From positions 261,165 to 325,164 of the forward strand of contig JBAZJY010000001.1 of NCBI GenBank assembly GCA_041651115.1: a stretch of 64,000 nucleotides of DNA, written 5' to 3'. This document shows, piece after piece, positions 23,482 through 42,800 of this stretch. Source of the DNA: Candidatus Omnitrophota bacterium. Lineage in GTDB: Bacteria; Omnitrophota; Gorgyraeia; Gygaellales; Profunditerraquicolaceae. The position numbers and the translations under genes were made by a program. The notes beneath the pieces were generated by a model. The model did not search any database and was not told the DNA's origin. It saw only the letters and a list, made by a program, of their open reading frames with translations. The first letter of the stretch is position 1. Each line of letters begins with the position of its first letter.

Positions 23482-23487
23482 CGGCTT

Positions 23488-24708
23488 ATGAGTAAGGGTT
23501 TGATCGTGCAAAAATTCGGCGGTTCATCCGTGGCTAATGTGGAGCGTATCCAGAACGTGGCAAAGCGGGTAACCGGATATAAAAAGAAAGGTTATGACGT
23601 GGTCGTAGTTGTATCGGCATTGGGCGATACAACCGATGAGCTTATAGATTTGGCCGCGAAGATAACAACCGAGCCGTCTGAGCGTGAAATGGATATGCTT
23701 TTATCCACGGGCGAACAGATCTCTGTAGCCCTGCTGGCTATGGCAATACATAAATTAGGCTGCGAAGCCATATCTTTTACCGGCGCGCAAGTCGGCATTA
23801 TCACCGATACCAGCCATACGCGCGCGCGTATTCTCCGGATCAATACCAATAAGATCAAGGAGGAAATAGGCAAAGGCAGGGTGGTGATCGTTGCAGGCTT
23901 TCAAGGGGTTACTCTTAATCAGGATATTACTACTTTGGGCCGCGGAGGTTCTGACCTGACAGCTGTAGCCTTGGCAAAAGAGCTGACTGCGGATGAGTGT
24001 GAGATCTATACCGATGTTGCGGGCATATATACGACTGACCCGCGCATCGAGCCCAAGGCAAAAAAAATAAAAGAAATCACTTATGACGAAATGCTGGAAA
24101 TGGCATCGCTGGGCGCGCAAGTAATGCAGGCGCGCTCGATAGAAGTGGCAAAGAAATTCAATGTGCCGATCCACGTGCGCTCGTCTTTTTCCGAAATTTC
24201 AGGGACAATGATCATTAAGGAGGCAAAAAAAATGGAAGATGTTCTGGTAAACGGCATTACCTTAAATAAGCATGAGGTAAAGATTACCATTTGCACGGTT
24301 CCTGACCGGCCGGGTATCGCGGCTAAAATTTTTAACGATCTGGCGAGCGCGGGAATCAGCGTGGATATGATCGTGCAGAACGTCAGCCATTTGCGCCAGA
24401 CCGATATTTCTTTTACGATAAATAAGTCCGATTCTGCCAAAACAATGAAGCTTACCAGGGCGCTGGTAAAAGAGATCGGGGCAGGCGAAGTGGTGCAAGA
24501 TGAAGATATCGCGCGGGTTTCCATTGTCGGTGTGGGAATGAAGTCCCATCCGGGAGTTGCGGCGAAGATGTTTGATACCTTGGCAAAGAATAAGATCAAT
24601 ATTGAGATGATCTCAACCTCCGAGATCAGCATTTCCTGCATTATCCAGAGAAAATTTGCCGAAACGGCGGTTAAGGCGCTGCATGAAAAATTCGGTTTAG
24701 CAAAATGA
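23488..24708 (+). CDS. lysC: Aspartate kinase.
   Basis: The kinase N-terminus reads LIVQKFGGSSVAN. Tandem C-terminal ACT domains follow. Confidence 0.9.
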   Translation: MSKGLIVQKFGGSSVANVERIQNVAKRVTGYKKKGYDVVVVVSALGDTTDELIDLAAKITTEPSEREMDMLLSTGEQISVALLAMAIHKLGCEAISFTGAQVGIITDTSHTRARILRINTNKIKEEIGKGRVVIVAGFQGVTLNQDITTLGRGGSDLTAVALAKELTADECEIYTDVAGIYTTDPRIEPKAKKIKEITYDEMLEMASLGAQVMQARSIEVAKKFNVPIHVRSSFSEISGTMIIKEAKKMEDVLVNGITLNKHEVKITICTVPDRPGIAAKIFNDLASAGISVDMIVQNVSHLRQTDISFTINKSDSAKTMKLTRALVKEIGAGEVVQDEDIARVSIVGVGMKSHPGVAAKMFDTLAKNKINIEMISTSEISISCIIQRKFAETAVKALHEKFGLAK

Positions 24709-24750
24709 CCTTTAGTTCATCCTGAGCGACCGAAGGGAGCCGAGGGATCT

Positions 24751-26322
24751 ATGAAACAGGTAAAACTTTATGACACAACATTAAGGGACGGCGCGCAAGG
24801 CGAAGGGGTTTCTTATTCCGTAACGGATAAGGTGATGATCGCCCGCGAGCTGGACAGGTTCGGCATACATTATATTGAAGGCGGATGGCCGGGTTCCAAT
24901 CCCAAGGACAGGGAATTTTTCTCTAAAATGGCCAAGGTTAAGCTAAAAACTTCGCAATTGACCGCTTTCAGTATGACCCGCAGGCCGGGGATAAAAGCAA
25001 AAGAAGACCAGAATATCTCCGCGTTGGTAAAATCTCAGGCAAAGATCATCACCATCGTAGGAAAAACCTGGGATTTGCACGTTACGGATATTTTAAAAAC
25101 TACGCTGGAAGAGAATCTTTTAATGATCAAAGATACGGTAAGCTTCCTCGTATCCGAAGGCCTGGATGTTTTTTATGATGCCGAACATTTTTTCGACGCC
25201 TTTAAGGCGAACCGTGAGTACACCCTAAAAACGTTGCTTACCGCCCAGGAGGCAGGCGCTGTATCGGTTTGCCTTTGCGATACCAACGGCGGCAGCCTTA
25301 CTTCTGAAGTGGCGCGTATCGTCAAAGAGGTGCGGCCGTTGATCAAGGGGATACTGGGTATCCATTGCCATAATGACGCGGGCCTGGCAATCGCAAATTC
25401 ATTGGCTGCGGTCGAGGCAGGCGCGGATATGGTGCAGGGTACAATTAACGGCTATGGCGAGAGGTGCGGCAATGCCGACCTGATCCCGATCATTGCTAAC
25501 CTTAAATTAAAAATGGGCATTGACTGCATCGGCCGGGAAGGATTAAAGGATCTTGTTAAGCTTTCGCATTTTGTCGGCGAGATCAGCAATATGCGACAGA
25601 GGAATGACCAGCCATATGTCGGTACGTCGGCATTCGCCCATAAAGGCGGCATGCATATTAATGCGGTAATGAAAAATCCCGTTGCTTACGAGCACGCCGA
25701 TCCTTTGGCGGTAGGCAATCACCGCCGTTTCCTGATGTCGGAATTAGGCGGAAAGACCGGTATCCTTGTCCAGGCAAAGAACCTTGAGCTTGATTTAAGT
25801 AAGGATGATCCAAAAACAAAAAAAATCCTGCGCCTGATCCAGGACCTTGAGCATAAAGGGTATCATTTTGAAGCTGCCGAAGGATCTTTGGAGTTGCTGC
25901 TAAAGCGGGCGTTAAAAAAATATACGAAATTTTTTGAACTTGAAGGTTTCCGGGTGGTAATCGAGAAACAATCCGATAAAAAGATCACTACCGAAGCGGT
26001 AATGAAGCTCAAAGTCAAGGGCATTAAGGAACATACTGCCGCAGAAGGCGACGGCCCGGTAAACGCGCTGGATAATGCCCTGCGTAAGGCCCTGAAAGAA
26101 TTTTACCCCGCGCTTTCTAAAATGCGCCTCTCGGATTTTAAAGTGCGCGTGTTGGATGAGAAATCCGGCACTGCCGCGCGCGTACGCGTGCTGATCCAGT
26201 CGCAGGATGATTCCGACACCTGGAACACGATCGGAGTTTCCGAAAATATTATTGAAGCATCCTGGCAGGCGCTTGTGGACAGCGTGGAATATAAATTACT
26301 TAAAGACCTTAAAAATGGATGA
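24751..26322 (+). CDS. 2-isopropylmalate synthase / (R)-citramalate synthase family protein.
   Basis: The HMGL-like motif LYDTTLRDGAQGEG is present, followed by a LeuA-dimer C-terminal domain. The protein is 523 aa. Confidence 0.85.
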   Translation: MKQVKLYDTTLRDGAQGEGVSYSVTDKVMIARELDRFGIHYIEGGWPGSNPKDREFFSKMAKVKLKTSQLTAFSMTRRPGIKAKEDQNISALVKSQAKIITIVGKTWDLHVTDILKTTLEENLLMIKDTVSFLVSEGLDVFYDAEHFFDAFKANREYTLKTLLTAQEAGAVSVCLCDTNGGSLTSEVARIVKEVRPLIKGILGIHCHNDAGLAIANSLAAVEAGADMVQGTINGYGERCGNADLIPIIANLKLKMGIDCIGREGLKDLVKLSHFVGEISNMRQRNDQPYVGTSAFAHKGGMHINAVMKNPVAYEHADPLAVGNHRRFLMSELGGKTGILVQAKNLELDLSKDDPKTKKILRLIQDLEHKGYHFEAAEGSLELLLKRALKKYTKFFELEGFRVVIEKQSDKKITTEAVMKLKVKGIKEHTAAEGDGPVNALDNALRKALKEFYPALSKMRLSDFKVRVLDEKSGTAARVRVLIQSQDDSDTWNTIGVSENIIEASWQALVDSVEYKLLKDLKNG

Positions 26323-29020
26323 AATTCCTTCCCGTTATAATCCTAAAGAAACCGAGGACAAATGGTATGAGTCCTGGATTAAGAGCAATCTTTTCCACGG
26401 CCAGGTAAATCCCGCGAAAAAACCTTTTACCATTGTTATCCCGCCGCCCAATGTTACAGGCATCCTGCACATGGGCCACGCCCTGAATAATACTATCCAG
26501 GATATCCTCATCCGTTACCACCGCATGAAAGGCGAAGAGGCGCTTTGGATGCCCGGCACCGACCATGCCGGCATAGCCACCCAGAATGTCGTAGAAAAAT
26601 CAATCGCTAAAGAAGGTTTAAAACGGCAGTCTTTGGGCCGGGAAAAATTCATCGAGCGCGTCTGGCAGTGGAAGGAGCAGTATGGCTCGACTATTATCCG
26701 GCAGCTTAAAAAATTGGGCGCTTCCTGCGATTGGCAGCGCGAACGCTTTACCATGGATCTCGATTATTCCAAGGCAGTAATCGAAGCTTTTGTGCGGCTT
26801 TATGAGAAAGATTTGATTTACCGCGGCAGCCGAATCATCAACTGGTGCCCGCGCTGCCAGACCGCGCTTTCCGACGAAGAAGCGCCGCACCATGAGCTTG
26901 CCGGGAATCTTTATTATTTGCGGTATCCGCTTAAAGACAACCCTGAACAGTTTATCATTGTGGCCACGACCAGGCCGGAAACCATGCTTGGCGATACCGC
27001 GGTTGCGGTTAACCCGAAGGATAAGCGGTACAAGAAACTGATAGGCAAGACACTGCTCCTGCCGCTTGTCGGCAGGGAAATAAAGATCATCGGTGATTCT
27101 TCTGTCGACATGGAATTCGGCACCGGCGCGGTGAAAATTACCCCTGCCCACGACCCGAATGATTACGCGGCCGGAAAGAAACACGACCTGGAGTTTATCA
27201 ATGTAATGCATCCTGACGCGAGAATGAATGAATTTGCCGGCGAATACAAGGATATGGACCGGTTCGAGGCAAGGGAAGTGATTGTTGAGGACCTGAAGGA
27301 GAAGGGGTTGTTAGAAAAGATCGAACCGCATAAATTATCCGCCGGCCACTGCTACCGTTGCCATACGATAATTGAGCCGTATTTATCAAAGCAGTGGTTC
27401 GTAAAGATGAAGCCGCTGGCAAAGCCGGCGATCGAAGCGGTGAAAAAGGGGAGGATTAAATTTCATCCCAAGCGTTGGGAAAAAGTATATCTTAACTGGA
27501 TGGAAAATATCCAGGATTGGTGCATCTCGCGCCAGATATGGTGGGGACATAGGATTCCCGTATATTACTGCAAGAAATGCCAGAAAACGATAGTTTCGCG
27601 GATAAAACCGCAGATTTGCCCGGGTTGCGGCTCGCAAGACATCCTGCAGGATGAAGATGTCTTGGATACATGGTTTTCTTCCTGGCTTTGGCCGTTCGCA
27701 ACCTTTTACTGGCCGCCGGAGGCGTATAAAAACGGGTTGCATCCGAATAACGGAAATACCCCTAAAAACGACCTGAAGTATTTTTATCCTACGTCTGCGC
27801 TGGTGACTGCCCCGGAAATAATATTTTTCTGGGTAGCCAGGATGATCATGGCGGGCTTTGAGTTTATGGGCGACATCCCGTTTAAAGACGTTTATATCCA
27901 TGGAACAGTGAGGGATATTGAAGGTAAAAAGATGTCCAAGTCGCTGGGCAATGTTATTGACCCGCTGGATATCATAGAGGAATACGGCACAGATGCCCTG
28001 CGTTTTAGCCTGATCTCCATAACTGCTCAGGGTCAGGATGTGTTCCTGTCAAAAGAAAGATTTGAGCAAGGCAGGAATTTCGCAAATAAGATCTGGAATG
28101 CCTCAAGGTTTATCTTAATGAATTTGGATAGTCAGGGACTGTCCCCGACGGGGGCTGTCCCTGACTTATGTGTATTCTTTAAAAAAGAGGATTTGAGTAT
28201 CGTTAATCGATGGATTTTGAGTAAGTTTTATTCCACGCTTAAAGAAGCGACCAAATACCTGGAAAATTTCCAGTTTAATGAAGCGGCAAACAGCCTTTAT
28301 GCGTTTTTTTGGCATGATTTCTGCGACTGGTACCTTGAGATCGTCAAGCAGGACATAAAAAACCCGCACAACCAGTTGGTAATGTATAAAATATTAGAGA
28401 AATTTTTACGTACCCTGCATCCGTTTATGCCTTTTGTCACCGAAGAGATATGGCAGCGACTGCAAATTACAAATAACAAATCACAAATAACAAGTATAAT
28501 GCTTGAGCCGTGGCCGCACGTGCAGGATCAGATCATTGATAAAAAAACCGAAAATAAAATGGCGCTGGCCATAGAAATAATCGCCGCCATTCGCAATATG
28601 CGTCAGGAATTAGAAGTTCCGCTTCAGGCGAAGGTGAGCGTAACGATTTCTGCCTCCGGCAAGGAAAACCGGCAGCTCGTCGAGGCGTTGGCCCCGGCAA
28701 TAAAGAGCCTTGGCCGCCTGGAAAGCCTTTCCGTAGAAGAGAAGCATAAACAGGTCAAAGCCAGCGTAAATTCCGTGATAAAGGATATTCATATTACTAT
28801 GCCCCTTGGCGGGATAGTGGATCTGGAAAAGGAAATCGCAAAATTGAGCGAGCGTATTAAAAAGGCAGAAACGGAAACCAGCGCTAAAGAAAAAATGCTG
28901 GCCAATAAGGAATTCGTAAAGAAGGCTCCTCCGGAGATCGTGGAAAAAGAAAGAACGCGGCTTAAGGAGCTGGCTGAGATAATCAGCCGGCTTAAGGTGA
29001 TTAAAGATGGACTGCGATAA
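26315..29020 (+). CDS. valS: Valyl-tRNA synthetase.
   Basis: The HIGH motif (PPPNVTGILHMGHALN) and the KMSKS motif (KMSKSLGN) are present, along with a C-terminal coiled coil. The start at 26315 overlaps the leuA-family stop by 8 nt. The track's 26207 start is an upstream over-extension. Confidence 0.95.
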   Translation: MDEIPSRYNPKETEDKWYESWIKSNLFHGQVNPAKKPFTIVIPPPNVTGILHMGHALNNTIQDILIRYHRMKGEEALWMPGTDHAGIATQNVVEKSIAKEGLKRQSLGREKFIERVWQWKEQYGSTIIRQLKKLGASCDWQRERFTMDLDYSKAVIEAFVRLYEKDLIYRGSRIINWCPRCQTALSDEEAPHHELAGNLYYLRYPLKDNPEQFIIVATTRPETMLGDTAVAVNPKDKRYKKLIGKTLLLPLVGREIKIIGDSSVDMEFGTGAVKITPAHDPNDYAAGKKHDLEFINVMHPDARMNEFAGEYKDMDRFEAREVIVEDLKEKGLLEKIEPHKLSAGHCYRCHTIIEPYLSKQWFVKMKPLAKPAIEAVKKGRIKFHPKRWEKVYLNWMENIQDWCISRQIWWGHRIPVYYCKKCQKTIVSRIKPQICPGCGSQDILQDEDVLDTWFSSWLWPFATFYWPPEAYKNGLHPNNGNTPKNDLKYFYPTSALVTAPEIIFFWVARMIMAGFEFMGDIPFKDVYIHGTVRDIEGKKMSKSLGNVIDPLDIIEEYGTDALRFSLISITAQGQDVFLSKERFEQGRNFANKIWNASRFILMNLDSQGLSPTGAVPDLCVFFKKEDLSIVNRWILSKFYSTLKEATKYLENFQFNEAANSLYAFFWHDFCDWYLEIVKQDIKNPHNQLVMYKILEKFLRTLHPFMPFVTEEIWQRLQITNNKSQITSIMLEPWPHVQDQIIDKKTENKMALAIEIIAAIRNMRQELEVPLQAKVSVTISASGKENRQLVEALAPAIKSLGRLESLSVEEKHKQVKASVNSVIKDIHITMPLGGIVDLEKEIAKLSERIKKAETETSAKEKMLANKEFVKKAPPEIVEKERTRLKELAEIISRLKVIKDGLR

Positions 29021-29870
29021 AAAATTTTCCGCTGGCGTGCGCAGCGCGTTAAAAGAGGATATCGGGAGAAACGATATTACGACGTCTTTATTTATACCGG
29101 CTGATAAATCAATAAAGGCGGATCTGGTAGCTAAGGAAGTTTGCGTGGTCTGCGGCCTGGGGATTGCTTGCCTGGTATTAAAGGCAAAGGATAAGAATAT
29201 TAAATTTATGCCTAAGGTTAAAGACGGAGATTTTGTCAGGAAGGGAAAAGCCATTGCCCGCGTTCAGGGTAACGCGCGGCAGATATTAACCGCTGAAAGG
29301 GTTATGTTGAATTATATCTGTTTTCTTTCCGGCGTGGCGACGAAGGCACGGCAATACGTAAACGCGGCAAAGCCTTACAGAGTAAAAATCATTGATACCC
29401 GTAAGACCGTTCCCGGATTAAGGGAATTGGAAAAATACGCCGTTAGGGTAGGCGGAGGGTTTAACCACCGTATGCGCCTGGATGAGATGATCCTCATAAA
29501 GGATAACCATATTGAGGTGTTAGGTGATAGGTCGTGGGTGTTAGGATTTGATAAAATTCGAAAAAGAATCCCGAAAAATATTAAAATAGAAATTGAAGTA
29601 AAGAATCTAAGGGAATTTAAAAAGGCCTTAAAAATGACCCCTGATATTATTCTTTTAGATAATATGAGCATAAGTGATATGAAAAAAGCAGTTTCTATAA
29701 GAAATAACCTATCACCTGCCACCTATCACCTAATACCTAAACTTGAAGCCTCCGGAAGGGTAACTCTTGAGCGCGTAAAGAAAATTGCTTCCTGCGGCGT
29801 AGACATGATCTCCGTCGGCAGCTTGACCCATTCCGTAAGGTCTATTGATATGAGCCTGGAGGTTCTGTGA
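29007..29870 (+). CDS. nadC: Nicotinate-nucleotide (quinolinate) pyrophosphorylase.
   Basis: QPRTase motifs are present (…ILIKDNHI…IEVEV.NL…DIILLDNM…EASGRV). Confidence 0.85.
   Translation: MDCDKKFSAGVRSALKEDIGRNDITTSLFIPADKSIKADLVAKEVCVVCGLGIACLVLKAKDKNIKFMPKVKDGDFVRKGKAIARVQGNARQILTAERVMLNYICFLSGVATKARQYVNAAKPYRVKIIDTRKTVPGLRELEKYAVRVGGGFNHRMRLDEMILIKDNHIEVLGDRSWVLGFDKIRKRIPKNIKIEIEVKNLREFKKALKMTPDIILLDNMSISDMKKAVSIRNNLSPATYHLIPKLEASGRVTLERVKKIASCGVDMISVGSLTHSVRSIDMSLEVL
29517..29545. repeat. TAGGTGATAGG-family palindromic repeat arm, in-frame inside nadC.
   Basis: The arm reads gtgttaggtgataggtcgtgggtgttagg. It shares the 17-mer GTGTTAGGTGATAGGTC with the intergenic copy at 52935-53000. 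Confidence 0.6.
29707..29740. repeat. Inverted partner arm of the TAGGTGATAGG-family repeat inside nadC.
   Basis: The sequence acctatcacctgccacctatcacctaatacctaa is the reverse complement of the first arm's motif. Confidence 0.6.
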
Positions 29871-29901
29871 TATTAATTGTCGCTGAACAGGGGAGGGAAA
29901 A

Positions 29902-31143
29902 ATGAAAAAGATTTTTCTGGCGCTTAGCGTATGCGCGTTCACATTGCTATCTGGTAATGCCCCCATCGCGTGTTCGGAAACCGGTGATCCTTCAAGGATA
30001 GTTGTTTGCAGTGAAATATTTAATGCGCTGGGCAAAACTGCCGGCGCTTCTAAGGAAGCCGCGGCCATTTTAGCCGGGGCGTTGACGGATAAGGATTTTT
30101 TTATCCGCGCCTCCGCGGCCAAGTCTTTGGGGCTGTTAGGTGATAAAGATTCCGCGTTGATGCTTAAGAAATTGGCCGGAGACGAGAACTACCTTGTGAT
30201 GATCAATGCTACGGCCGCTTTGGTCCACCTTGGCTTATCCGGAGAAGATGCCTTGCTTGATCTGCTTAAAGACAACAGGTCCGAAGTAAGGGGAAACGTC
30301 TTGGGCGTGTTAACTACTTTTAAGGATCAACATCCGGATGTAATACTTGAAATGTTACGCGATGAAAAAAATGATTTTGTGCGCGAGCAGGCTTTGTTGA
30401 GGCTGGGAGAAAATAAATTTATCCAAGCGCAGGAAGTTGTTATTGCGGACACGGAAAACAAGGATCCCGGAGTACGGCAGGCAGCGTGTTTTGCCCTCGG
30501 GCAGATCGGCGGCCCTGAAGCCGGCAAGTTTTTACATAAACGGTTAAGCGATGATGATCCGAGGGTGCGTGCCAGGGCCAAAGAAGCCTTAAGTGTGATT
30601 GGAGACCGCTCAATAATCAGCCTGCTTTGGCAGGACGTAAAAGAAAGAAACGCGTTTTTACGCGGCAGTTCATATGTCGCATTAGCTAATTTAAAAGAAT
30701 TTGACGTTTTGCCGCTTGTCTTAAAGGAAATCATCAGCCCTGATAGCACCTCGCACGCAAGGGCTAAGGCCGCAGAAGCATTGGTGGTCTTGAGGCCGCA
30801 TGTTTCGGAGTTGTCCACCAAAGCGCTCTCCAGCTTGAATATCGGGTCTTTATCTTCGGATAATTTAGAAATTAGCTTTGACTATAAGATCGGCGGGCAA
30901 AGCTTGACAATGACGCTCATTGCCGCGATTAATGATGTTAAAAGCCCGCTGCATCAGGACGCGCCGCTGGTAATTACCATTATGGGGTTAATGGATTGCC
31001 TGCCTGCTTTGCATCAGGCTCTGTTAATGGGTGATCCGGATATGGCAGCATCAGCTGCCTCTGCTTTAGGCGAGATGAAAGATAGCAGCGCTACGGAATA
31101 TCTTATTCAAGCCTGCAAGAAATACGGATGTGGAAAAATTTAA
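29902..31143 (+). CDS. Secreted HEAT/PBS-lyase-like repeat protein.
   Basis: A signal peptide is present ([20 protein letters not shown]). Repeated …R..AA.ALG.LGD… HEAT-like units follow. Confidence 0.6.
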
Positions 31144-33130
31144 ACTGGTTTCTGCATATAAACCTTGCGGCGACCAGCCGCAGGCAATTGAGCGGCTCGC
31201 CGCGTCAGTCCGTTCAGGCAACCGCTATCAGACCCTGCTTGGGGTAACCGGTTCAGGAAAAACCTTTACTCTTGCCAACGTCATTGAAAAAATAAACCTT
31301 CCTACCCTGGTAATTTCTCATAATAAGACGCTGGCTGCGCAGCTTTATTCCGAATTCAAAGAGTTCTTTCCGGCCAATGCCGTGGAATATTTTGTCAGTT
31401 ATTATGACTATTACCAGCCGGAAGCGTATATCCCTTCCACAGATACTTATATTGAAAAAGATTCCGCGATAAACGACCGGCTTGACCGGCTGCGGCTGTC
31501 TTCAACTTCCAGCCTGATGTCCCGCAACGACGTTTTGATCGTCGCGTCGGTATCCTGTATTTATAACCTCGGTTCGCCGGAAGACTATAAGGGGTTGCTG
31601 GTTTTTATCAGTAAAGGCGAGAATATCGGCCGCGACCAGCTGCTGGAAAAATTGATCCAGATCCAATATGAGCGTAATGATTATGAGTTCATCCGCGGGA
31701 AAGTGCGCGTGCGCGGCGATATCGTGGAGATATTCCCTTCTTATGAGGAAAAGGCTGTACGCGTGCAGTTATTCGGCGATACGGTAGAAAAGATCTCCGA
31801 GATCGACCCACTCACAGGGGAAGTGTTGGTTGAACTGGATAAGGCAGCAATATACCCGGCAAAGCACTTTATTGTTTCCGGAGATAAGATCAGCGGGGCC
31901 TTGGATGCCATTGAAGCGGAATTACAGGAACGCTTACGTTTTTTACGCGAACATAACAAGCTCTTGGAAGCGCAGCGGCTGGAATCCCGCACGCATTACG
32001 ATATGGAAATGCTTAAGGAAATGGGGTATTGCCACGGTATCGAAAATTACTCGCGCGTCCTTTCCGGAAGGCCTCCGGGTTCAAGGCCATATTGTCTGTT
32101 GGACTATTTTCCCGAAAAATTCTTAATCGTCATTGATGAATCGCATGTAACGCTGCCGCAGGTCAGGGGAATGTATGAAGGTGACCGTGCAAGGAAAGAG
32201 GTCTTGGTTGATTACGGCTTTCGTCTGCCGTCCTGCCTCGATAACCGGCCGCTTAAGCCGCAAGAATTCGATAGCATGGTCAAGCAGGCGATACTTGTTT
32301 CCGCTACTCCTGCGGATTATGAGATAAAAGTAAGTAAGGGCGAGGTTATAGAGCAGATCATCCGGCCTACGGGCTTGGTTGACCCGGAAATAATCATCCG
32401 GCCGGCAGAAGGCCAGATCGACGACCTAGTCAAAGAGATCAGGAAGCGCGCGGGGAAAAAAGAGCGCGTGCTTGTGACGACCCTGACCAAAAGAATGAGC
32501 GAGGACCTGACTACTTATTTACAGGAAAAGAATTTAAGTGTAAAATACCTTCATTCGGAGATTGATACGATTGAACGCTCAAGGATTATCCGGGGGTTGA
32601 GAAAAAAGGAATTTGATTGCCTTGTCGGGATCAATTTGCTAAGAGAAGGGCTTGACCTTCCGGAGGTTTCTTTGGTGGCGATCCTTGACGCGGACAAGGA
32701 AGGTTTTTTACGTTCGGCAACCAGCTTGATCCAGGTTTCCGGCAGGGCAGCGCGCAACATCAACGGAACGGTGATTATGTACGCCGATAATATTACCGGC
32801 TCAATGAAGCGCGCGATAGATGAGAGCAACCGCCGCAGGAAGATCCAGCTTGAGTTTAATAAAAAGAATAATATTACTCCGCGGTCCATTGAGAAAGCGA
32901 TAAAAGAAGGGATTGAAGACCTGGAAGAAGCGCAAGGCTTGGTCGTGGAATTGGCCGGTGAAAGTAAAGAGGAACATGAACTAAACGAATACATCTCGGA
33001 GCTTGAATATGAAATGGAGTTGGCAGCAAGGAACCTGCAGTTTGAAAAAGCGGCGGAAATCAGAGATAAAATAAAAGCGTTGGAACCGTCATTGCGAGCC
33101 CCGAAGGGGCGAAGCAATCAGGAAGGTTAA
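31130..33130 (+). CDS. uvrB: Excinuclease ABC subunit B.
   Basis: The N-terminus F.L.S.Y.P.GDQP.AI is typical of UvrB. Helicase motifs GVTGSGKT and DESH are present, with a C-terminal UVR domain. Confidence 0.95.
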
Positions 33131-33131
33131 C

Positions 33132-34496
33132 ATGCTATTAGCCGTAGATATAGGTAATACTAATATCAGTTTTGGTTTATTTAAAGGCAACCGGCTGGTA
33201 AGAAAGTTTGACATACCCAGTGTCGGTTTTAGCCTGGGAAAATTAAGGCTGCGTCTTGGTAAAAAAGCGGATATTTCCGCTGCGATCATTTGCAGCGTTG
33301 TGCCGAGGTTAACGCCAGCCGTAAGTGCCGGTATAAACAAGCTCCTGCGGATAACCCCTATTATAATAGGTAAGGATATAAAAGTTCCCCTAAAAAATCT
33401 TTATCGTAATCCCAGGCAGGTCGGGCAGGACCGTTTAGTTAATGCTTATGCCGGTGTAATGTTCTATGGCAGCCCGTTGATCGCTGTTGATTCAGGTACG
33501 GCAATTACCTTTGACGTAATCTCCCGTAAAAAAGAATATCTCGGCGGGATGATCTTGCCGGGGTTGAATATGTCTTTAGATGCGTTACACTGTAAAACCG
33601 CGCTCCTGCCGCAAATGAAATTACGGCCTCCGAAAGAGTTTATTGGCCGCGATACGCAAGGCAGTATTTTAAGCGGGATTATTCACGGCATTGCAGGGCT
33701 TGCTGATGAAATGGTAAGAAAAATAAGGCTCGTAGTAGGGGAAGATGCCGTAGTGATCGGTACTGGAGGCAATATCAAGTTGATTGCAAAATACTCCCGG
33801 TCGTTTGATGCGGTAGATTCTGATCTAACGCTCAAGGGATTAAACCTGATCTTTAGGGACGGTTCTCAACTCAAAGCTAAAGTGTCCCCTAAAAAGGGAC
33901 ACTTTTCCTTTGGATTCAGAACCGTCCCTAAGTTTATCTTGATTGCCATTTTTAGCCTTCTGTCTTACAGCGTATGCTTTTCCCAGCCATTCGAAGAAAA
34001 GCCTTTATCTGAATCCGTGAAAAAGGGCTTTGAGGAGGCGATCCAGAAATTAGACGCGGAAAAACAAAAAGAGCATAAGAAAATCGCCGCAGAGCTTCAG
34101 GCGAAGCTGGACACAGCAGTGCAGGATTGGGTAAATCAACAGAAAAGTAAGCGTAACCGGGAACTTAACACCATAATTGAGCAGCAATGGGAGAACCTTA
34201 CGGAATTCGGCCCGCGCATACACCGCAGCTATTATTTGCGCGACTATTCGTACACGATCATAAACGTGGATATTGTCAAGACCGAGTCAATGATCGGCGC
34301 TTATAAGGCGGTGATGAACGTAACGGAAAAACTTTTTGCCGAACGTTATCATTCACCGGACGTGACTTATCCGCAGGATTTTTACTATACGGTTACGACA
34401 CCGGTCCGCGTAAACTTTGAATATTATCACGATAAGTTTGTGGTTACGACAACCGAATACGGAAAAGGCTCAATTGACCCGGGATGGAGAAGATAG
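33132..34496 (+). CDS. coaX: Type III pantothenate kinase fused to a roughly 200-aa C-terminal extension that starts with a signal-peptide-like helix.
   Basis: The CoaX N-terminus MLLAVDIGNTNISFGLF covers about the first 240 aa. The 75-nt palindromic element then lies in frame, followed by KFILIAIFSLLSYSVCFSQ and an unknown domain. Confidence 0.7.
   Translation: MLLAVDIGNTNISFGLFKGNRLVRKFDIPSVGFSLGKLRLRLGKKADISAAIICSVVPRLTPAVSAGINKLLRITPIIIGKDIKVPLKNLYRNPRQVGQDRLVNAYAGVMFYGSPLIAVDSGTAITFDVISRKKEYLGGMILPGLNMSLDALHCKTALLPQMKLRPPKEFIGRDTQGSILSGIIHGIAGLADEMVRKIRLVVGEDAVVIGTGGNIKLIAKYSRSFDAVDSDLTLKGLNLIFRDGSQLKAKVSPKKGHFSFGFRTVPKFILIAIFSLLSYSVCFSQPFEEKPLSESVKKGFEEAIQKLDAEKQKEHKKIAAELQAKLDTAVQDWVNQQKSKRNRELNTIIEQQWENLTEFGPRIHRSYYLRDYSYTIINVDIVKTESMIGAYKAVMNVTEKLFAERYHSPDVTYPQDFYYTVTTPVRVNFEYYHDKFVVTTTEYGKGSIDPGWRR
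33855..33929. repeat. 75-nt nested-hairpin palindromic element (copy 1), in-frame inside the coaX ORF.
   Basis: Outer arms agggacggttct / cagaaccgtccct flank an inner hairpin gtgtccc-ctaaaaa-gggacac. The architecture and length match the copy at 36566-36640. Confidence 0.7.
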
Positions 34497-34510
34497 TTTA
34501 AAAAAAATAC

Positions 34511-34538
34511 TTGACAAGCTTTTTTTTTGCCATATAAT
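34511..34538 (+). promoter_or_regulatory. Sigma70-type promoter for groES-groEL.
   Basis: The -35 TTGACA at 34511-16 and the -10 TATAAT at 34533-38 are separated by a 16-nt spacer. Confidence 0.5.
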
Positions 34539-34564
34539 TAGCACTCTGTAAAATAGAGTGCTAA
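34538..34564 (+). promoter_or_regulatory. CIRCE operator (HrcA binding site).
   Basis: TTAGCACTC-tgtaaaata-GAGTGCTAA is a perfect match to the CIRCE consensus TTAGCACTC-N9-GAGTGCTAA. Confidence 0.9.
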
Positions 34565-34606
34565 AAAGCACTGTTGTTAAACAAATATTTTTAGAGGAGG
34601 TGGAGT

Positions 34607-36558
<1,952 letters not shown>

Positions 36559-36565
36559 ATAGAAT

Positions 36566-36640
36566 AGGGACGGTTCTGCGGACAAAGGGAAAAGTGTCCT
36601 GTTTTAGGGACACCTTTCGCTTTGGCCCAGAACCGTCCCT
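36566..36640. repeat. 75-nt nested-hairpin palindromic element (copy 2), intergenic after groEL.
   Basis: The element reads agggacggttctg…gtgtcctgttttagggacac…cagaaccgtccct. It may also act as a terminator. Confidence 0.7.
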
Positions 36641-36667
36641 AAGCATTAAAAAAACACCAAAAAATAT

Positions 36668-36695
36668 TTGACTAGGCGCGAAAATATGTTATACT
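36668..36695 (+). promoter_or_regulatory. Candidate promoter upstream of the giant-gene pair.
   Basis: TTGACT and TATACT are separated by 16 nt. The element lies about 190 nt upstream of the ATG at 36886. Confidence 0.3.
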
Positions 36696-36885
36696 TCTAT
36701 AAGTTTTGCGTTTCTCTGCTTTAATGCCTGCCACGGGCAAGACTGTTGAATTACTATTAGTACTGCAGTAATTCTCCTTTAAAAGCAAGCTCCTTAAGGA
36801 ACCTGTTGGGTCAATAGCCCAAATTTTTTTAGATTGTTAGTAATAACTTTTTAAAAGTCTTACCTTAGATAAGGAGAGTAACCCG

Positions 36886-39800
36886 ATGGCAATTAAATCC
36901 CCGTCCCTGCGCAAGCTCGTATCTCTACTTCTTACCTTCACCTTTCTCTTTACCCAAACCGGCTTTGCCCAGGTAGCAGCTGTTGAGCTTAACATCGGCT
37001 CGCACTTAGGAATCCTTGGCTCAAAGCTTTCTTCACCGGACAAGCTCCGCCTACCGCATTTAAGGTATTTCTCCTACGATAACCAAAATAACAATATCCA
37101 GCTTCTTTTAGATAAGGGAGACTTAAAGGACCTAAAAGACCAAGCCCTAGAGGATTCAGGAAAAGAGCTCCTAAAGTACTTCCTTATAGGCGTAACTCTT
37201 CCTGATGAGCACTTCTGGGTAAACCTTCGGCCTGATTCAGAAGAAAACATCATCCCTGAACTCTTAGCCAAGACTGATATCGGTAAAATCTTTCTTGAAG
37301 CAGATGTCCAGCTTAAAAAAGATACCGCAAGCCTAACCTCACCTAACAGCCCCCAGGGAAAGCTTTACTGGGACAAGCTCTATAAAAAAGCAGCCCAAAT
37401 CTACGGCACCCAGAATGTCACTATCCCCACCTTAACCCGTCCTTGGATTGTGCCAAATGAGATCATTATTCGCGAGTCAAAGGAAAGCGCTTACATCTAC
37501 AAGGCTACATTAAAGGTAATGTTAGAGCAGGACCACCTTAAAGGCTCGGTTAACTATAACTTTGAAGACTCCCGCGCCAAAGAACTCAATGAATATTCAT
37601 CAGAGCTTATTAGAGAACTCATCCTTCCTGAATTAACCAAGGAAGTAAACAATGCCAAACGCTATTCCCAGCTAAGACAGGTCTACTACTCTTTAATACT
37701 CGCACGCTGGTTTAAGGCCAGGTTCTACGGTAAAGGAGGCCTTTATGCTTCCTACATTAATAAAGCTAACCTAGAAGGCTTAACTTCTAACCAAAGCTGG
37801 TCAAAAGACACTTATTTTAAAGCTTACCAGTCTTCCTTTAAAGACGGCGAATATAATCTCCAGGCTACAGTAAACACCATCTCCGGCCCATCAATTAGAA
37901 GCTACTTCTCAGGCGGCATGGAATTCGGCCCTAATATGAACATTGTTACTCAAAACAGAAGCTCTGTCCCCATGATTGCCGGCTTCCAGGGTAAACTCTC
38001 AAGCCCCATGCTGATAAACGTAGGCATGAATAATGGCATGTCTTTACTTGTTGGCGCACCTACCATCAAGAATCCGATAATGCTGATGCAGGGAGTGGGG
38101 TCAAGCCCGGTTGATGAGGAGCCTAAGATTCCGAATATTAATCCTGAAGATGGGCGTATACCGGATCCTGAACCGACAGAAAACGAAAACCCTGGCGATG
38201 AGCCGGAAATTAATTATAACGATCATTCCTATGATGATCAGGAGGCGCCGGAGAAAGATGAAGAAGTTGGCTCCAGCCCGCTGACTACAGAAGAAATAAA
38301 GAACAATGCCAAGGCTGCTTTGGAGAAGTTAGTTAAGGATAATAAAGATTCGCAATTAATAAGAGAAGTTTCCGGCATTGTATTGAATGATAGGGCTAGA
38401 AACATAACTAGCCGTATATTTAAGAAGATTTCTCCCAATACGGCAAGCTCCTACGACAAAAAAATGAAAATCCTGCATCTACTCGAAACAGTTAGGCGTA
38501 GTCCAGTCCATAGTGATCTTAAAGCAGGCTGCGCGGAGGCCGCGTATTATATTAAGGAAAGAGATGATCTTGAATTTCTTAAGTGGAGAGGAAACACGGA
38601 AGTTTTTGGACCAGAACACAGGATAATCGCCAAGATGGCGGTTTTGTTTAAGACAAGAAAAGACGATGAAAGAAGTAAAATAGCACAAGAGATTATTGAT
38701 TTAGATAATAGTACGCACTATGAATCTTATCAGGTTGATTCCATGGCAAAATTTAAGACTTTATTCTATTCTGTCCAATATCTCTTTTCCGAAGACTTTG
38801 CCGCCGCCTCCAGTCCATTCAAAGTCGAACCTGTCAGTTCGTTAAAGGTATATTCTGATATTAACCAGCGCATTTGGCTTGACGGCCTGACTTTTGAGAT
38901 GCTGCTTTCAGGCGAGTTTGAAAAACTGGTGCGTGAGCATGGCATAAACGGCGTTACTACCAATCCCTCGCTCATTAAGGCTTATTTTAGCGACCAGCGG
39001 GTGATCGATAAGGCAAGGAAATTAGCTTCCGAAGGATTGGGCAAAAAAGAAATCTATTACCAGCTTGTCAGTGAACTGGCTAGAACTGCGCTGGAGATAT
39101 TCAAGAAAGCCGGTGTAGCCAATGCCAAATTCAGTGTTGAGTTGGATCCTACTGTCAATAATAGCAGCGTAGAAGAAGCTGTTGTGGAAGCAATGCAGTG
39201 GACTGACATTGATCCTGCGCACATGATGGTCAAGGTTGCCCTGACTTCCGACGCAAACGGCGTTGATACGGAAACCGGATATAAAATAATCGAAGAGGTA
39301 ATATCCCGCGGCCGCAATGTTAATGTAACGCTGATTTTCACTCCTGAACACTACAAAAAAGTCGTTCAGGCGTATATCAACGGCCTTAAGCGCGCGCTTC
39401 TTAATGTAAAGGCAGGCAAATTAAGCAAGGAAGAATTTAACCGGATTTATTCCGTTGCCAGCTTTTTTATCTCCCGTTGGGATGTTTATTTTGAGGAAAA
39501 TAAGCTTCTTGCTGATGGTGTGCATGGTAAAGCTGCTAATTCCATTGCGATCGAAGCCTATAATGAGATATTTAAATTCTTTTTCAGCGATGAAAATCCT
39601 GAATGGAAGCAGTTAAAAGATGATGCCGCGTCCATCGGCTGTGAAGTCAGGCCCCAGGAGTTCCTGCTTGCTTCCACCGGTTCTAAAGGCCCTGATATGC
39701 TTAAAAAAGGCGTCATTGATGAAAAAACCGCAGCCGAATATCCTGCCGGGATTTATGTGCATCCTTTGCAGGGCAGTTACGTCGTAAATACCCTTCCTTA

Positions 39801-42800
39801 TGGGACCATAAAACATCTGATTGAAAAGGGCGTGGCTAAGAATGAAGACGGCAGCATTGCGCAAACTATCGAATCCGGATATATCGCAAGTCAGGATGTG
39901 ATGGATTGGCTCAGAGACGCTTCCAGCATAACCGATGTAGGCGCCATACTGCTTAAGAACGCCACAACCGCCTTCCTGAAAGACTTTGCCGATATTCAGA
40001 ATACGCTTGAAGGGCTTGTCTCTGGAAAAACTTCCTCCCCGGTAAATGAACTACAGCGCGCAGACGTTAACCGGATGGTTGATGATTTATTGGGGATGTA
40101 TAAAGCAAAAGACGAGGTAGTAAGGATAGAGAAGCTGGAAGGGATTATCCGGCCTGCGGCCAAAGCCATAGAGGAATATCTTTATGGGCAGTTCGCCGAC
40201 CAGAAAATCGCCGCAAACATCTATGAGAAAGGTATGAAAAATATCATACCGAATCTTGCAAAATGGTATACCGATCCGTATATACAGGAATCTACGGTTT
40301 TAGGCATAGAAGATGCAGTAAAAGAAGGTTATTGGAAATTCATTGCCCAGGCTTATATGGCAAAAATAGCTTATGGCACTGCCGGCGTGCGCGGTAAATT
40401 TGCGTTCGGTAAATATTTCCAGCTGGTAGCTGAAGCAGCTAAGCAAGGAAAAGGCTTAAGGGTGCCTAATCTAAAAGGGCCGAATACCTTTAATGATGAA
40501 ATAGTCCGGCAGTTTACATTAGGAGTTTTAAAATTCCTGGAGAATCAGAATTCCGACCTGCCGAAATCAGGCCTGAAATTATTCACCGCTTATGACAGTA
40601 GAGTTGCAGGAAAAGAATTTGCCCAGATAATCAGGGATATTGGCCTGGCTTATGGGGTACAGGTTTATATTTCCGATGAAGCAATGCCTCTTCCGGAATT
40701 TTCCAACTCTTTAAAAGAGCTATCCGGAGGTAAGGCTGCGATCGGTATTTATATTTCCGCCAGCCACAATGTCAAGCCGGATAACGGCGTGAAATTGATC
40801 GGTGCAGACGGTATGCAATTAGGCGCTAATGACGTCCTGCGCAAGGCGGTAATGAAGGAATTTGACAGCGCAACGCTTAAAGAAGTAGCCGAGTTGCTTA
40901 AAAATTTACCTTCTGAAATACCGGCCGAACAGTTAACATTCATAGGCGGCAAAGAAGAAGAGAAGCTGCCGGGAGTTGAGTATGGAGATCATAAACTTAT
41001 TGATACCCATACCATGCATTTTAATGCCGTGCTTAAGCATGTTAAGGACCAGGAAGCAGTTAAGAAGTATGCTAAAGATATAAATATCCTTTATTGCGCT
41101 TTTCACGGCGCAGGCAGAAGGGCTGCTCCTCGCGTATTGGGCGCGTTGGGATTCAATGTGGAAAAAATAGAGAAGATGGATGCCCTGGACGGCACATTGC
41201 CTGAATTTGCAGATGCCGAGCCGCCGGATCCGGCGCTGGTTGCTTCTTGGAAAAAGGCGCTGCAGGCATATTTAAGTGAACACCGCAGGGAAGACCTGCT
41301 TAAGAAAGACCTTTTTAGCTCCAATGATCCTGACGCAGACAGGTATGGTGGAGTGATCAGGGTAAGTGCTGCAGAGATCCCTGAAGATGAGGCAGTTGCC
41401 GAAGCCATGGGCATAGCTTTCAAGCTTACCGAAGAGGAACAGGCAAAATATGGTTACGGTGGTTTTCGCGTGCTTCCGCCTAATGAATGGAATGCGCTGA
41501 TCGCTTTTTATGACCTGAAACGGTTAAAAGATCAGGGCAAACTTGACCCCAATAAGCATGTTTTAGTTTTTTCACATGTAACTTCGTACTTGATGAAAAA
41601 GATAGCTGATTATTTTGGTATAGCAGTAGTTATTAAGCCGGTAGGCGTGGATCAACTGGCTGATGAGATCGTAAAGCTGGAGAAGCAAGGCAAGATAGCT
41701 GTGAATGGAGCGGAAGAGAGCGGCACATATATGACCAGCGACCACATCCGCGACAAAGACGGCTTCCTGGCAGGCGTGCGCCTGGCAGAGATAGCCTGCG
41801 CTGCCCGCGCACAGGGCAAAACAATCAATGATCTCTTAAACGAGATATATCTTATCCCAGAGATCGGATTTTTCGCGACTACTAACTTCCCCATAGAATA
41901 CGAAGTCTCTGTTCCGGGGACTGCCGCGAAAATGGCTGCGGTAAAATTCCTGCAGAAAGACGTGAAGCCTTTGGTAGAAGAAAGAATACGCAAAGGAGAC
42001 AACCCGGTAATCGCAGGGTATAAGATACATGATGTAGACGAACAGACAGAATTCAGGTCTGGTAAATACGACGAGCCGCTTGAGTATCAGGGATATCCGG
42101 ATGCGGGTATCAGGTTCTACTTTAATCCGGAAAAAACAGGTTTTATCACTGACCGGCCGTCAGGAACCGGCCCTCAGCTGCGTTTCTACGCGCACCTGTT
42201 TTATCTTACGGAAGGGCTTGACCTGGCCGGGCTTAACACTTTGAAGAAAAACGCCTATGCCGAATGCCTAAAGGTGACGAAAGAATGGATGCGAATTACC
42301 CAGAGCAACGACATTAAGGCGCTTGTCAGTTCTCCGGTTGTCAATTCCAGGCAAATAGCAAAGGTACTTTCTGAAATGAAGAAGAATTCCGGATTGCCGA
42401 TATCAATCGCGCCGTCATTAACCGCTACTACCTGGAGTGGAGCTTTGCACGCGATTAATTTTTCCCGGCCTGTTTTTCGCAGGGTAGAACGGGAATCGCT
42501 GAATGAAGAAAGATTTACCGGAAAAACGGCTTTTACAAGCGCCGCGAGCGATACTGATGTAAAAGGCCTGACTACTTATGACGTCATAGCCGGTGAATTC
42601 AAGAGCGTGCGTACAGGTGAACAGGTGAGGGGCTTTATCACTGACCAAACTGCAGCGCTGCCCGAATATACCTATTTTATGCACCGCGGTATATTTGCTT
42701 CCCGTGAAGATATACAAAAAGCTTTTTATGACAACAAGATCCGTTTTGACATCACCGTTATTCCTCCGGGGATCTGGGGCATAGATTATGCTAAAACAGT

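What the first reader, a model, noticed from the sequence alone, without database searches (positions are those of the whole stretch)
33855..33929. 75-nt nested-hairpin repeat element inserted in-frame in coaX, creating a CoaX fusion protein
The 75-nt element has outer arms agggacggttct / cagaaccgtccct and an inner hairpin gtgtcc…ggacac. It occurs intergenically after groEL (36566-36640) and also inside the coaX ORF. Its length of 25 codons keeps the frame there, and it is translated as …GSQLKAKVSPKKGHFSFGFRTVPK…. It sits exactly where a normal 250-aa CoaX would end. The continuing ORF then begins with a signal-peptide/lipoprotein-like helix (FILIAIFSLLSYSVC). This suggests a MITE/REP-like element that replaced the stop region and fused two genes. 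Alternatively the lineage may tolerate in-frame palindromic insertions.
Basis: seen in the sequence. Interest (0 to 1): 0.6.

Follow-up and report, generated by a model that had tools for sequence, protein, structure and literature searches.

The report
Mobile palindromic repeat fusing two genes
A 75-base palindromic repeat, of the kind copied around bacterial genomes by a small single-strand transposase, sits where the pantothenate kinase gene of an Omnitrophota bacterium should end. It is read through in frame, so the kinase is joined to the secreted protein that relatives encode as a separate gene.

Summary
Two 75-nt nested hairpins lie at 33855-33929 and 36566-36640. The first lies in frame inside a 454-aa ORF that consists of CoaX, a 25-aa element-encoded linker, a hydrophobic segment and a 188-aa domain.

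Four relatives encode CoaX (about 250 aa) and that domain as two genes. In three of them the stop and start overlap; in the fourth (L124) a minus-strand gene lies between them. So the element occupies the former stop/start junction.

The element is not a classical MITE: 101 non-redundant copies show no target-site duplication. Each half is itself an 11-bp hairpin, which makes the whole a REP doublet of REPIN type. Its arm motif GGGACGGTTCT flanks, in inverted orientation, RAYT-like Y1 (IS200-like) transposase genes. This holds for three of four Omnitrophota loci chosen only by protein homology.

Most copies sit between a stop codon and the next gene's ribosome-binding site. A few are translated in frame, for example in queA and queH. 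One distant relative has the same fusion without the element, so the element is not the only route to the fusion.

Verdict: a new REP/REPIN-like family in a phylum where I found none described, with Rickettsia-RPE-like in-frame copies. No RAYT gene lies in this window, and mobility and translation are inferred.

The parts
33855..33929 (.). 75-nt palindromic element, copy 1, lying in frame inside the coaX-X ORF. Outer arms 33855-33866 and 33918-33929; inner hairpin arms 33882-33889 and 33896-33902; loop 33890-33895. Flanked by T (33854) and A (33930).
   Evidence: for sequence, chance expectation and fold. One search aligns it with 95 other copies. One search gives an nhmmer E-value of 5e-23.
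36566..36640 (.). 75-nt palindromic element, copy 2, intergenic. It starts 7 nt after the groEL stop (36556-36558) and lies upstream of the promoter-like site at 36668-36695.
   Evidence: No T-run follows the full hairpin on the + strand.
33132..33854 (+). CoaX (type III pantothenate kinase) part of the fused ORF, aa 1-241, ending ...LTLKGLNLIF.
   Evidence: Pfam PF03309, E = 1.5e-55; solved CoaX structures align to aa 1-249; homologues are 249-286 aa; dN/dS of 0.10 against L123.
33933..33983 (+). Hydrophobic segment FILIAIFSLLSYSVCFS. It corresponds to the h- and c-regions of the N-terminal signal peptide of the free-standing orthologues. In the fusion it is internal and preceded by a linker carrying 7 basic and 1 acidic residue.
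   Evidence: aligned with 11 orthologues that begin M..(K/R)I..IIxxFSxLPCSVCxSQP; it is the hydropathy maximum of the whole ORF, at aa 267-283.
33984..34496 (+). Conserved domain of unknown function (protein 'X'), which is a separate gene in relatives. The coordinates include the stop codon.
   Evidence: 11 standalone homologues of 151-221 aa, 63-100% identical to the L123 query, with no Pfam match; dN/dS of 0.056; structure model of low confidence (pLDDT 56), showing a long helix and a five-stranded sheet.
33132..34496 (+). The whole fused ORF of 454 aa: CoaX, 25-aa element-encoded linker, membrane segment, X domain.
   Evidence: One search lists the ORF; an independent gene call on ENA contig k141_2926323; the identical protein P0001 is also recorded on a 647-kb contig; 0 mismatches over 13,937 nt between the ENA contig and the window.

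Best explanation
What it is: The 75-mer is a copy of a REP-doublet (REPIN-like) family of Omnitrophota. It consists of two inverted ~33-nt REP hairpins. Their conserved foot, (A/G)GGGACGGTTCT, is the sequence that also flanks RAYT-type Y1 (HUH, IS200-like) transposase genes in this phylum.

How it spreads (inferred by analogy): In the REP/RAYT and IS200/IS605 systems, such elements are thought to be cut out and pasted as single-stranded hairpins by the transposase acting in trans. That mechanism leaves no target duplication.

Where copies survive: In these compact genomes, copies persist almost only in the few bases between a stop codon and the next gene's ribosome-binding site.

What happened here (shown by comparison): coaX and the downstream gene X originally overlapped (ATGA). 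In the window's lineage a copy came to lie directly after the last conserved CoaX codon. About 35 nt holding the coaX tail, its stop and the X start are gone.

Consequence: The element is 25 codons long and open in the RDGS...RTVP frame, so ribosomes now read from coaX through the element into X.

Predicted product (inferred): A cytoplasmic CoaX tethered to the membrane by the former signal peptide of X. The basic element-encoded linker would lie inside the cell and the X domain outside, possibly released by signal peptidase.
For: Family and copy number:
Of these, 101 copies are non-redundant, with a modal length of 75-76 nt.

No target-site duplication:
- No direct repeat of 2-8 nt flanks the copies at any boundary offset. 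The flanking bases are Y and R, independently of each other.

Doublet architecture:
- Each half forms its own 11-bp hairpin in 85.7% of cells, against 44-59% when the partner columns are slid.
- The two halves vary independently. The long hairpin pairs 82.4% of cells against 82.8% in shuffles.

Transposase link:
- L149 10007-10702 encodes a Y1_Tnp protein (PF01797, 52.6 bits, cut-off 23). It also matches NCBIfam REP_Tyr_transpos at 58.7 bits and keeps the HUH and Y motifs.
- The motif lies 57 nt upstream of that gene, and as hairpins at its stop and 400 nt further on.
- In L010 (a Clostridiales genome) the gene is bracketed by six tandem forward and four tandem reverse motifs.
- Unbiased test: four Omnitrophota Y1 genes were picked by protein homology alone. 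Three have GGGGACGGTTCT 70-90 nt upstream. Two of those have an exact inverted copy at or just after the stop, and the third has a degenerate one. The fourth gene has the variant GGGGACGCTCCT on both sides.

Placement of copies:
- In the 30 copies that have both a nearby upstream stop and a downstream Shine-Dalgarno sequence plus start on the same strand, the stop lies -2 to +9 nt from the element in 21. In 6 of the 30, the flanking T plus the element's own AG form the stop codon.
- In those 30 copies the start lies 10-22 nt after the element in 24.

The fusion:
- L123, L125, L126 and L124 have two genes; the window has one ORF.
- The ORF sequence is identical in a second assembly.
- Both halves are under purifying selection.
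Against: - No RAYT gene lies in the 64-kb window, and the rest of this genome could not be read.
- Only two copies occur in 64 kb, so a high copy number in this genome is not shown.
- The match to the NCBIfam RAYT model is below its equivalog cut-off (58.7 against 80 bits).
- The arms of the 75-mer start with A, whereas the copies next to RAYT genes start with G.
- Removing the element does not restore separate genes, so insertion alone did not cause the fusion.
- L121 has the fusion without the element.
- Neither mobility, nor translation of the fusion, nor its membrane topology has been observed.
- The pattern scans required exact arms, so conservation of the arms is partly built in.
Confidence: 0.68

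Rival explanations
1. Classical MITE: a deletion derivative of a DDE-transposase insertion sequence (for example an IS630- or IS5-like one inserting at TA), moved by cut-and-paste.
For: It has perfect 12-13-nt terminal inverted repeats, is small and multicopy, and both window copies are flanked by T...A.
Against: Only 34 of 101 copies have TA on both sides. The flanking Y and R bases are independent, and no duplication of 2-8 nt is found. No DDE transposase with these ends appeared in about 240 loci. The genes flanked by the motif are Y1 transposases.
Confidence: 0.07
2. Primarily a host-selected RNA element: an intercistronic hairpin that stabilises or processes operon mRNA or ends transcription. 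On this view its spread is secondary and the coaX copy is an accident of that role.
For: Copies are placed precisely between a stop codon and the next Shine-Dalgarno sequence. The hairpin is very stable. Copy 2 stands where a groEL terminator is expected, and in L121 a hairpin with the same 7-nt ends plus a T-run stands there. REPs in E. coli are known to have such effects (my own knowledge).
Against: Both strands fold equally well. Orientation relative to the genes is only 18 against 10. There is no net covariation, no T-run after either window copy and no Rfam family. The placement is also what purifying selection alone would leave in a genome with 15-30-nt spacers. This view does not exclude the REP/RAYT origin.
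Confidence: 0.15
3. The single 454-aa ORF is an assembly or consensus artefact. Examples would be two repeat copies collapsed into one with loss of what lay between, or a missed indel. In the cell coaX and X would still be separate.
For: Repeats are classic sites of assembly error. The missing ~35 nt lie directly next to the repeat. The ENA contig ends 428 nt after copy 2.
Against: Two deposited contigs (104.8 kb and 647 kb) give the identical protein, and one is identical in DNA over 13.9 kb. Synteny across the junction is as in relatives. In-frame copies of the same family occur in other genes and assemblies. The two assemblies may, however, share reads.
Confidence: 0.08

Closest known systems
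REP / REPIN elements and their RAYT transposases (Pseudomonas, Enterobacteria; Bertels & Rainey 2011, PMC3116915; PMC3337134; PMC5581495)
   Same: Short imperfect palindromes arranged as inverted doublets that fold into a larger hairpin. Mostly extragenic. No target duplication. The same repeat flanks a low-copy Y1 (IS200-like) transposase gene. Orthologous sites stay filled in related genomes (for example L176/L179, L131/L216).
   Different: A different phylum and a different core sequence (GGGACGGTTCT rather than a GTAG-headed REP). Some copies are translated inside genes, although REPs are extragenic by name. The transposase scores below the NCBIfam RAYT equivalog cut-off. The same 10-nt core also occurs in repeats of Bacillota, Actinomycetota and other phyla.
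Rickettsia palindromic elements (RPEs; reviewed in PMC10969869)
   Same: Palindromic repeats inserted in frame into unrelated housekeeping genes, adding a peptide segment in one preferred reading frame.
   Different: RPEs are about 100-150 bp and alphaproteobacterial, nearly half lie in ORFs, and no RAYT link is described. Here only about 3-7 of 89 copies lie in ORFs, and one joins two genes.
MIRUs of Mycobacterium tuberculosis and ERIC/Correia-type intergenic repeats (my own knowledge)
   Same: Small repeats lodged at the junctions of operon genes, sometimes overlapping the stop and start codons of their neighbours.
   Different: MIRUs are tandem direct repeats, not palindromes. Correia and ERIC elements have target duplications and no Y1 transposase partner.

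Membership tests
REP/REPIN-RAYT system | The unit is a short (20-40 nt) imperfect palindrome (REP). | tested here: met
   Each half pairs GGGACGGTTCT with AGAACTGTCCC as an 11-bp stem with an 11-13-nt loop. 85.7% of cells are paired in 95 distinct copies, against 44-59% when slid. In window copy 1 the half-hairpins are weaker: about 5-7 of 11 positions pair.
REP/REPIN-RAYT system | Two REPs in inverted orientation, separated by a short spacer, fold into one hairpin (REPIN). | tested here: met
   Whole-element hairpin of -46 to -54 kcal/mol, z about -9.4 to -11.5. 82.4% of cells paired. The halves vary independently.
REP/REPIN-RAYT system | The same repeat flanks a RAYT (Y1 HUH transposase) gene. 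| tested here: met
   Met in relatives: L149, L207, L010 and three of four Omnitrophota Y1 genes chosen by homology alone (L243, L244, L246). Not seen in the window itself.
REP/REPIN-RAYT system | The transposase belongs to the RAYT family. | tested here: inconclusive
   Pfam Y1_Tnp scores 52.6 bits, above its cut-off of 23. NCBIfam REP_Tyr_transpos scores 58.7 bits, below its equivalog cut-off of 80. The HUH motif (HTHLIV) and the Y motif (YIELNPVRAG) are present.
REP/REPIN-RAYT system | Tens to hundreds of copies per genome, while the RAYT gene is single- or low-copy. | not testable with these tools
   Only 64 kb of this genome is available, with 2 copies. Some contigs carry 2-3 copies in 4-12 kb. 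RAYT protein clusters sit on 1-5 contigs each.
REP/REPIN-RAYT system | Insertion leaves no target-site duplication. | tested here: met
   101 copies show no flanking direct repeat of 2-8 nt.
MITE of a DDE transposon | Target-site duplication, and a parent insertion sequence with the same terminal inverted repeats. | tested here: not met
   One search finds no duplication. Searches find no DDE partner; lone arms lie next to Y1 genes.
Rickettsia palindromic elements | Frequent in-frame insertion into protein-coding genes, with a conserved encoded peptide. | tested here: inconclusive
   In-frame copies occur in coaX-X, queA and queH, all in the RDGS... frame. They are a minority (7 of 89 lie in open frames). 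That frame is open in only 52-57% of copies. There is no sequence relationship to RPEs.
Intrinsic terminator | A G+C-rich hairpin directly followed by a T-run. | tested here: not met
   No T-run follows either full hairpin. The scan flags only the inner hairpin of copy 2, with a weak tail.
Any Rfam RNA family | A match at the family's gathering score. | tested here: not met
   One search finds only tRNAs in the window. One search finds only sub-threshold matches to generic miRNA-precursor hairpins.

The most novel reading that the evidence does not exclude
The GGGACGGTTC hairpin may be the recognition site of a RAYT clade that spans many phyla. The same 10-nt core appears in palindromic repeat arrays of Bacillota, Actinomycetota, Bacteroidota, cyanobacteria and Omnitrophota. 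In Omnitrophota its REPIN-like doublets would act as a standing source of protein change. They supply stop codons, C-terminal tails and a 25-aa translatable module, and can weld neighbouring operon genes together. The coaX/X junction may have been hit more than once: L121 carries AGGGCAGTCCCT in the same codon phase at its own fusion point. That would make a membrane-tethered pantothenate kinase a repeat-generated innovation rather than an accident.
Probability: 0.2. Interest if true: 0.65.

Novelty: new member of a known kind. Interest (0 to 1): 0.45.

Why it matters
REP/REPIN-RAYT systems have been characterised mainly in Proteobacteria and are regarded as strictly extragenic. This finding gives a clear example from an uncultured phylum with very compact genomes. 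The repeats fill the few bases between operon genes, sometimes provide the stop codon, and sometimes are translated.

It also gives a concrete case of how two translationally coupled genes can become one fusion protein through a repeat. For annotators it is a warning that the '454-aa type III pantothenate kinase' in public records is a CoaX joined to an unrelated secreted protein.

The core motif shared across phyla offers a simple handle for finding the cognate transposases and testing their DNA recognition.

Tried and rejected
- Literature search by sequence: searching papers for the 10-mers returned only unrelated primers.
- Rfam: nothing at gathering score, and only generic hairpin matches at permissive thresholds.
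- TA target duplication (IS630-type MITE): rejected by the flank statistics.
- Strand-specific RNA function: orientation relative to the flanking genes is 18 against 10 and both strands fold alike, so there is no clear signal.
- Covariation for the long hairpin: the percentage paired equals the shuffled value. Only the counts of pair types exceed the shuffles, so I make no claim of selection for the long stem.
- Internal start for X inside the element: the in-frame GTG at 33882 and TTG at 33939 have no Shine-Dalgarno sequence upstream. This is judged by eye, so a separate start is unlikely but not excluded.
- Function of X: no Pfam match. The structure model had a pLDDT of 56, too poor for a fold search, so none was run.
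- RAYT in the window: none found.
- Y1 homologues in L229, L217 and L212: they lack the HUH histidine and the catalytic Tyr and are one orthologous locus. I did not count them as evidence.

Full report
**1. The observation**

The window holds two 75-nt elements, at 33855-33929 and 36566-36640. Both have identical 12-nt arms (AGGGACGGTTCT / AGAACCGTCCCT) and an inner hairpin (GTGTCC..GGACAC). The two-arm pattern is expected 0.00 times in shuffles of the window.

Either strand of either copy folds into one long hairpin of -46 to -54 kcal/mol, with z from -9.4 to -11.5. A profile built from 96 family members finds no third copy in the 64 kb.

Copy 1 is 25 codons long and open in the frame of ORF 33132-34496 (454 aa). 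Copy 2 starts 7 nt after the groEL stop.

An ENA contig (L120) is identical to window 23132-37068. The identical 454-aa protein is also on record from a 647-kb contig annotated as Candidatus Omnitrophota.

**2. What the ORF is made of**

- Residues 1-241 are a complete type III pantothenate kinase. Pfam PF03309 matches with E = 1.5e-55, and solved CoaX structures align up to ...LTLKGLNLIF.
- Nearly all of the 120 best homologues are 249-286 aa long.
- Residues 267-454 are homologous to a small family of free-standing 151-221-aa proteins that have no Pfam match. The full-length members begin with a signal peptide, M..(K/R)I..IIxxFSxLPCSVCxSQP.
- The gene order uvrB-coaX-X-groES-groEL is conserved in this clade.

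**3. Comparison of the junction**

In L123 (CoaX 78% identical), L125 and L126, coaX runs 5-9 codons past LNL(I/V/L)(F/L) to a stop that overlaps the X start (ATGA or ATGCATAA). In L124 coaX ends LIFNLLQL*, and a minus-strand gene lies between coaX and X.

In the window the tail, the stop, the X start and its first three codons (about 35 nt) are absent. The 75 nt stand exactly in their place. This changes the phase between the two genes from +2 to 0.

Taking the 75 nt out leaves LIF|KFILIA, which is still open. The insertion alone therefore cannot have made the fusion. A deletion next to the palindrome, before or after the insertion, is also needed (inference).

Both halves have been under purifying selection since the split from L123: dN/dS is 0.10 for CoaX and 0.056 for X, with dS above 1.

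A distant relative complicates the picture. P0003 (41% identity, syntenic locus L121) is also a CoaX-X fusion but has no 75-nt element. At its junction it has AGGGCAGTCCCT in the same codon phase as the ends of the window element. Its groEL terminator is a hairpin with the ends TAGGGAC...GTCCCTA. These are the only two matches to AGGG.{0,4}GTCCCT in its 13 kb. I leave this unexplained.

**4. The repeat family**

True relatives of the 75-mer were found in Omnitrophota MAGs.

A stricter scan of metagenomes again reached its limit, at 114 loci. Together the two scans gave 101 non-redundant copies, with a modal length of 75-76 nt.

There is no target-site duplication. The flanking bases are Y (91%) and R (93%), they are independent of each other, and TA..TA occurs in only 34 of 101 copies.

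Each half is itself an 11-bp hairpin, with 85.7% of cells paired. The long hairpin pairs 82.4% of cells, no more than shuffles that keep column composition (82.8%). The two halves therefore vary independently. This is the architecture of a REP doublet, or REPIN (definition in PMC3337134 and PMC3116915).

**5. The partner gene**

L149 carries a 76-nt copy. It also encodes a 231-aa protein with HUH and Tyr motifs. The protein matches Pfam Y1_Tnp (52.6 bits, cut-off 23) and NCBIfam 'REP-associated tyrosine transposase' (58.7 bits, below the cut-off of 80). The motif lies 57 nt upstream of the gene, and motif hairpins lie at its stop and 400 nt further on.

Homologues next to motif copies occur in L207, in L010 (a Clostridiales genome, bracketed by tandem arrays of the motif in opposite orientation) and, less tightly, in L168.

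The closest named homologues of the L149 protein come from Omnitrophota MAGs. Four such genes were fetched by protein identity alone:
- L243 and L244 have GGGGACGGTTCT 70-90 nt upstream and an exact inverted copy at or just after the stop.
- L246 has the same upstream motif and a degenerate inverted copy after the stop.
- L241 has the variant GGGGACGCTCCT on both sides.
- A second Y1 gene in L243 is flanked by a different inverted repeat.

Repeats flanking the transposase gene are the hallmark of RAYT systems (PMC5581495).

The window itself has no such gene. The rest of its genome was out of reach.

**6. Where copies sit**

Of 89 copies with enough flanking sequence, 7 lie in open frames. The rest are mostly intercistronic.

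Thirty copies have both a nearby upstream stop and a downstream Shine-Dalgarno sequence plus start on the same strand. Among these 30:
- In 21 the stop lies -2 to +9 nt from the element.
- In 6 the stop codon is the flanking T plus the element's own AG.
- In 8 the upstream ORF ends inside the element.
- In 24 the start lies 10-22 nt after the element.

Orientation relative to the genes is 18 against 10.

Real in-frame intragenic copies occur in two other genes:
- queA in L067, with 15 extra residues compared with B. subtilis QueA (1YY3) in the loop before the FIYPGY motif.
- queH in L203, with 22 extra residues compared with the QueH of L067.

All in-frame copies enter in the RDGS... frame. 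The coaX-X and queH copies also leave it as ...RTVP; the 74-nt queA copy leaves in another phase (...PEPSLS). That frame is open in 52-57% of copies, against 15-27% for the other frames.

In-frame fusions caused by small repeats are known. Rickettsia RPEs are the extreme case (PMC10969869).

**7. Mechanism**

Shown:
- The family's anatomy.
- The absence of target duplications.
- The link between the motif and Y1 transposase genes.
- The placement of copies.
- The two-gene state in relatives.

Inferred:
- Mobilisation in trans as single-stranded hairpins by the Y1 enzyme, as in IS200/IS605 and E. coli TnpA-REP.
- A multi-step origin of the fusion.
- Translation of a CoaX-linker-membrane segment-X protein. 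The linker carries 7 basic and 1 acidic residue, which fits a cytoplasmic position ahead of the membrane segment.

**8. Verdict**

This is a new REP/REPIN-like family in Omnitrophota. One copy is translated and bridges two formerly overlapping genes. It is a new member of a known kind and of moderate interest.

Noticed in passing
L001-L119 (genome-contig loci), e.g. L010 4449-5774, L043 4832-4957, L038/L053/L058/L069: The 10-nt core GGGACGGTTC / GAACCGTCCC is shared by palindromic repeats in Bacillota, Actinomycetota, Bacteroidota, a cyanobacterium, a spirochaete and Omnitrophota. It often sits as the loop of a small hairpin with variable stems, or in tandem arrays that are mirrored. In L010 such arrays bracket a Y1 transposase gene. 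A REP core conserved across phyla is unusual.
   Followed up: partly
L121 6727-6738 and 9443-9492: This distant relative has a CoaX-X fusion without the element. It has AGGGCAGTCCCT at the fusion point, in the same codon phase as the window element's ends. It also has a terminator hairpin TAGGGACAGCGCCC...GGGCGCTGTCCCTA after groEL. These are the same two sites where the window has its copies, and they may be remnants of old copies.
   Followed up: partly
L229 5128-6114, L217 3486-4532, L212 8209-9213: A Y1-transposase-like protein of about 330 aa has lost the first HUH histidine and the catalytic tyrosine. It has gained a C-terminal membrane segment and a coiled coil. It sits about 500 nt from a repeat copy in three orthologous loci and looks like a domesticated, inactive relative.
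   Followed up: partly
window 36886-44262 (+): A 2458-aa ORF joins transaldolase (aa 663-1040), phosphoglucomutase/phosphomannomutase (aa 1200-1654) and cupin-type glucose-6-phosphate isomerase (aa 1930-2072) domains. These follow a signal-like N-terminus, with long Ser/Pro/Asp-rich linkers between domains.
   Followed up: partly
window 44271-44305: A perfect short hairpin, AAAAAGGGGACGTTTCC-GG-GAAACGTCCCCTTTTT, lies right after the stop of the giant ORF. It looks like a two-way terminator. Its stem differs by one base from the repeat core and equals the GGGGACGTTTC variant seen beside the L149 transposase.
   Followed up: no
window 34511-34567: A perfect sigma-70-type promoter (TTGACA, 16 nt, TATAAT) is followed by a CIRCE operator (TTAGCACTC-N9-GAGTGCTAA) upstream of groES. 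groESL therefore has its own heat-shock control and is not part of the coaX-X transcript's coding logic.
   Followed up: no
L124 2967-3522: In this relative a 142-aa minus-strand gene has come to lie between coaX and X. With it is a palindrome, AGGACCGTTTCC...GGAAACGGTCCT. This junction has thus been remodelled in at least three different ways across the clade.
   Followed up: partly
L243 4181-4873 and flanks: A second Y1 transposase gene lies 1 kb from the first. It is flanked by a different inverted repeat (GGGGTCAGAATTATTTTT / AAAAATAATTCTGACCCC), which suggests two RAYT-repeat pairs in one genome.
   Followed up: no
101 family copies (loci L067-L239 and window): Copy length is a multiple of three in 59 of 101 copies. 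The element's first base plus the preceding T and next G often form the upstream gene's TAG stop. I did not test whether this reflects selection for harmless read-through.
   Followed up: partly
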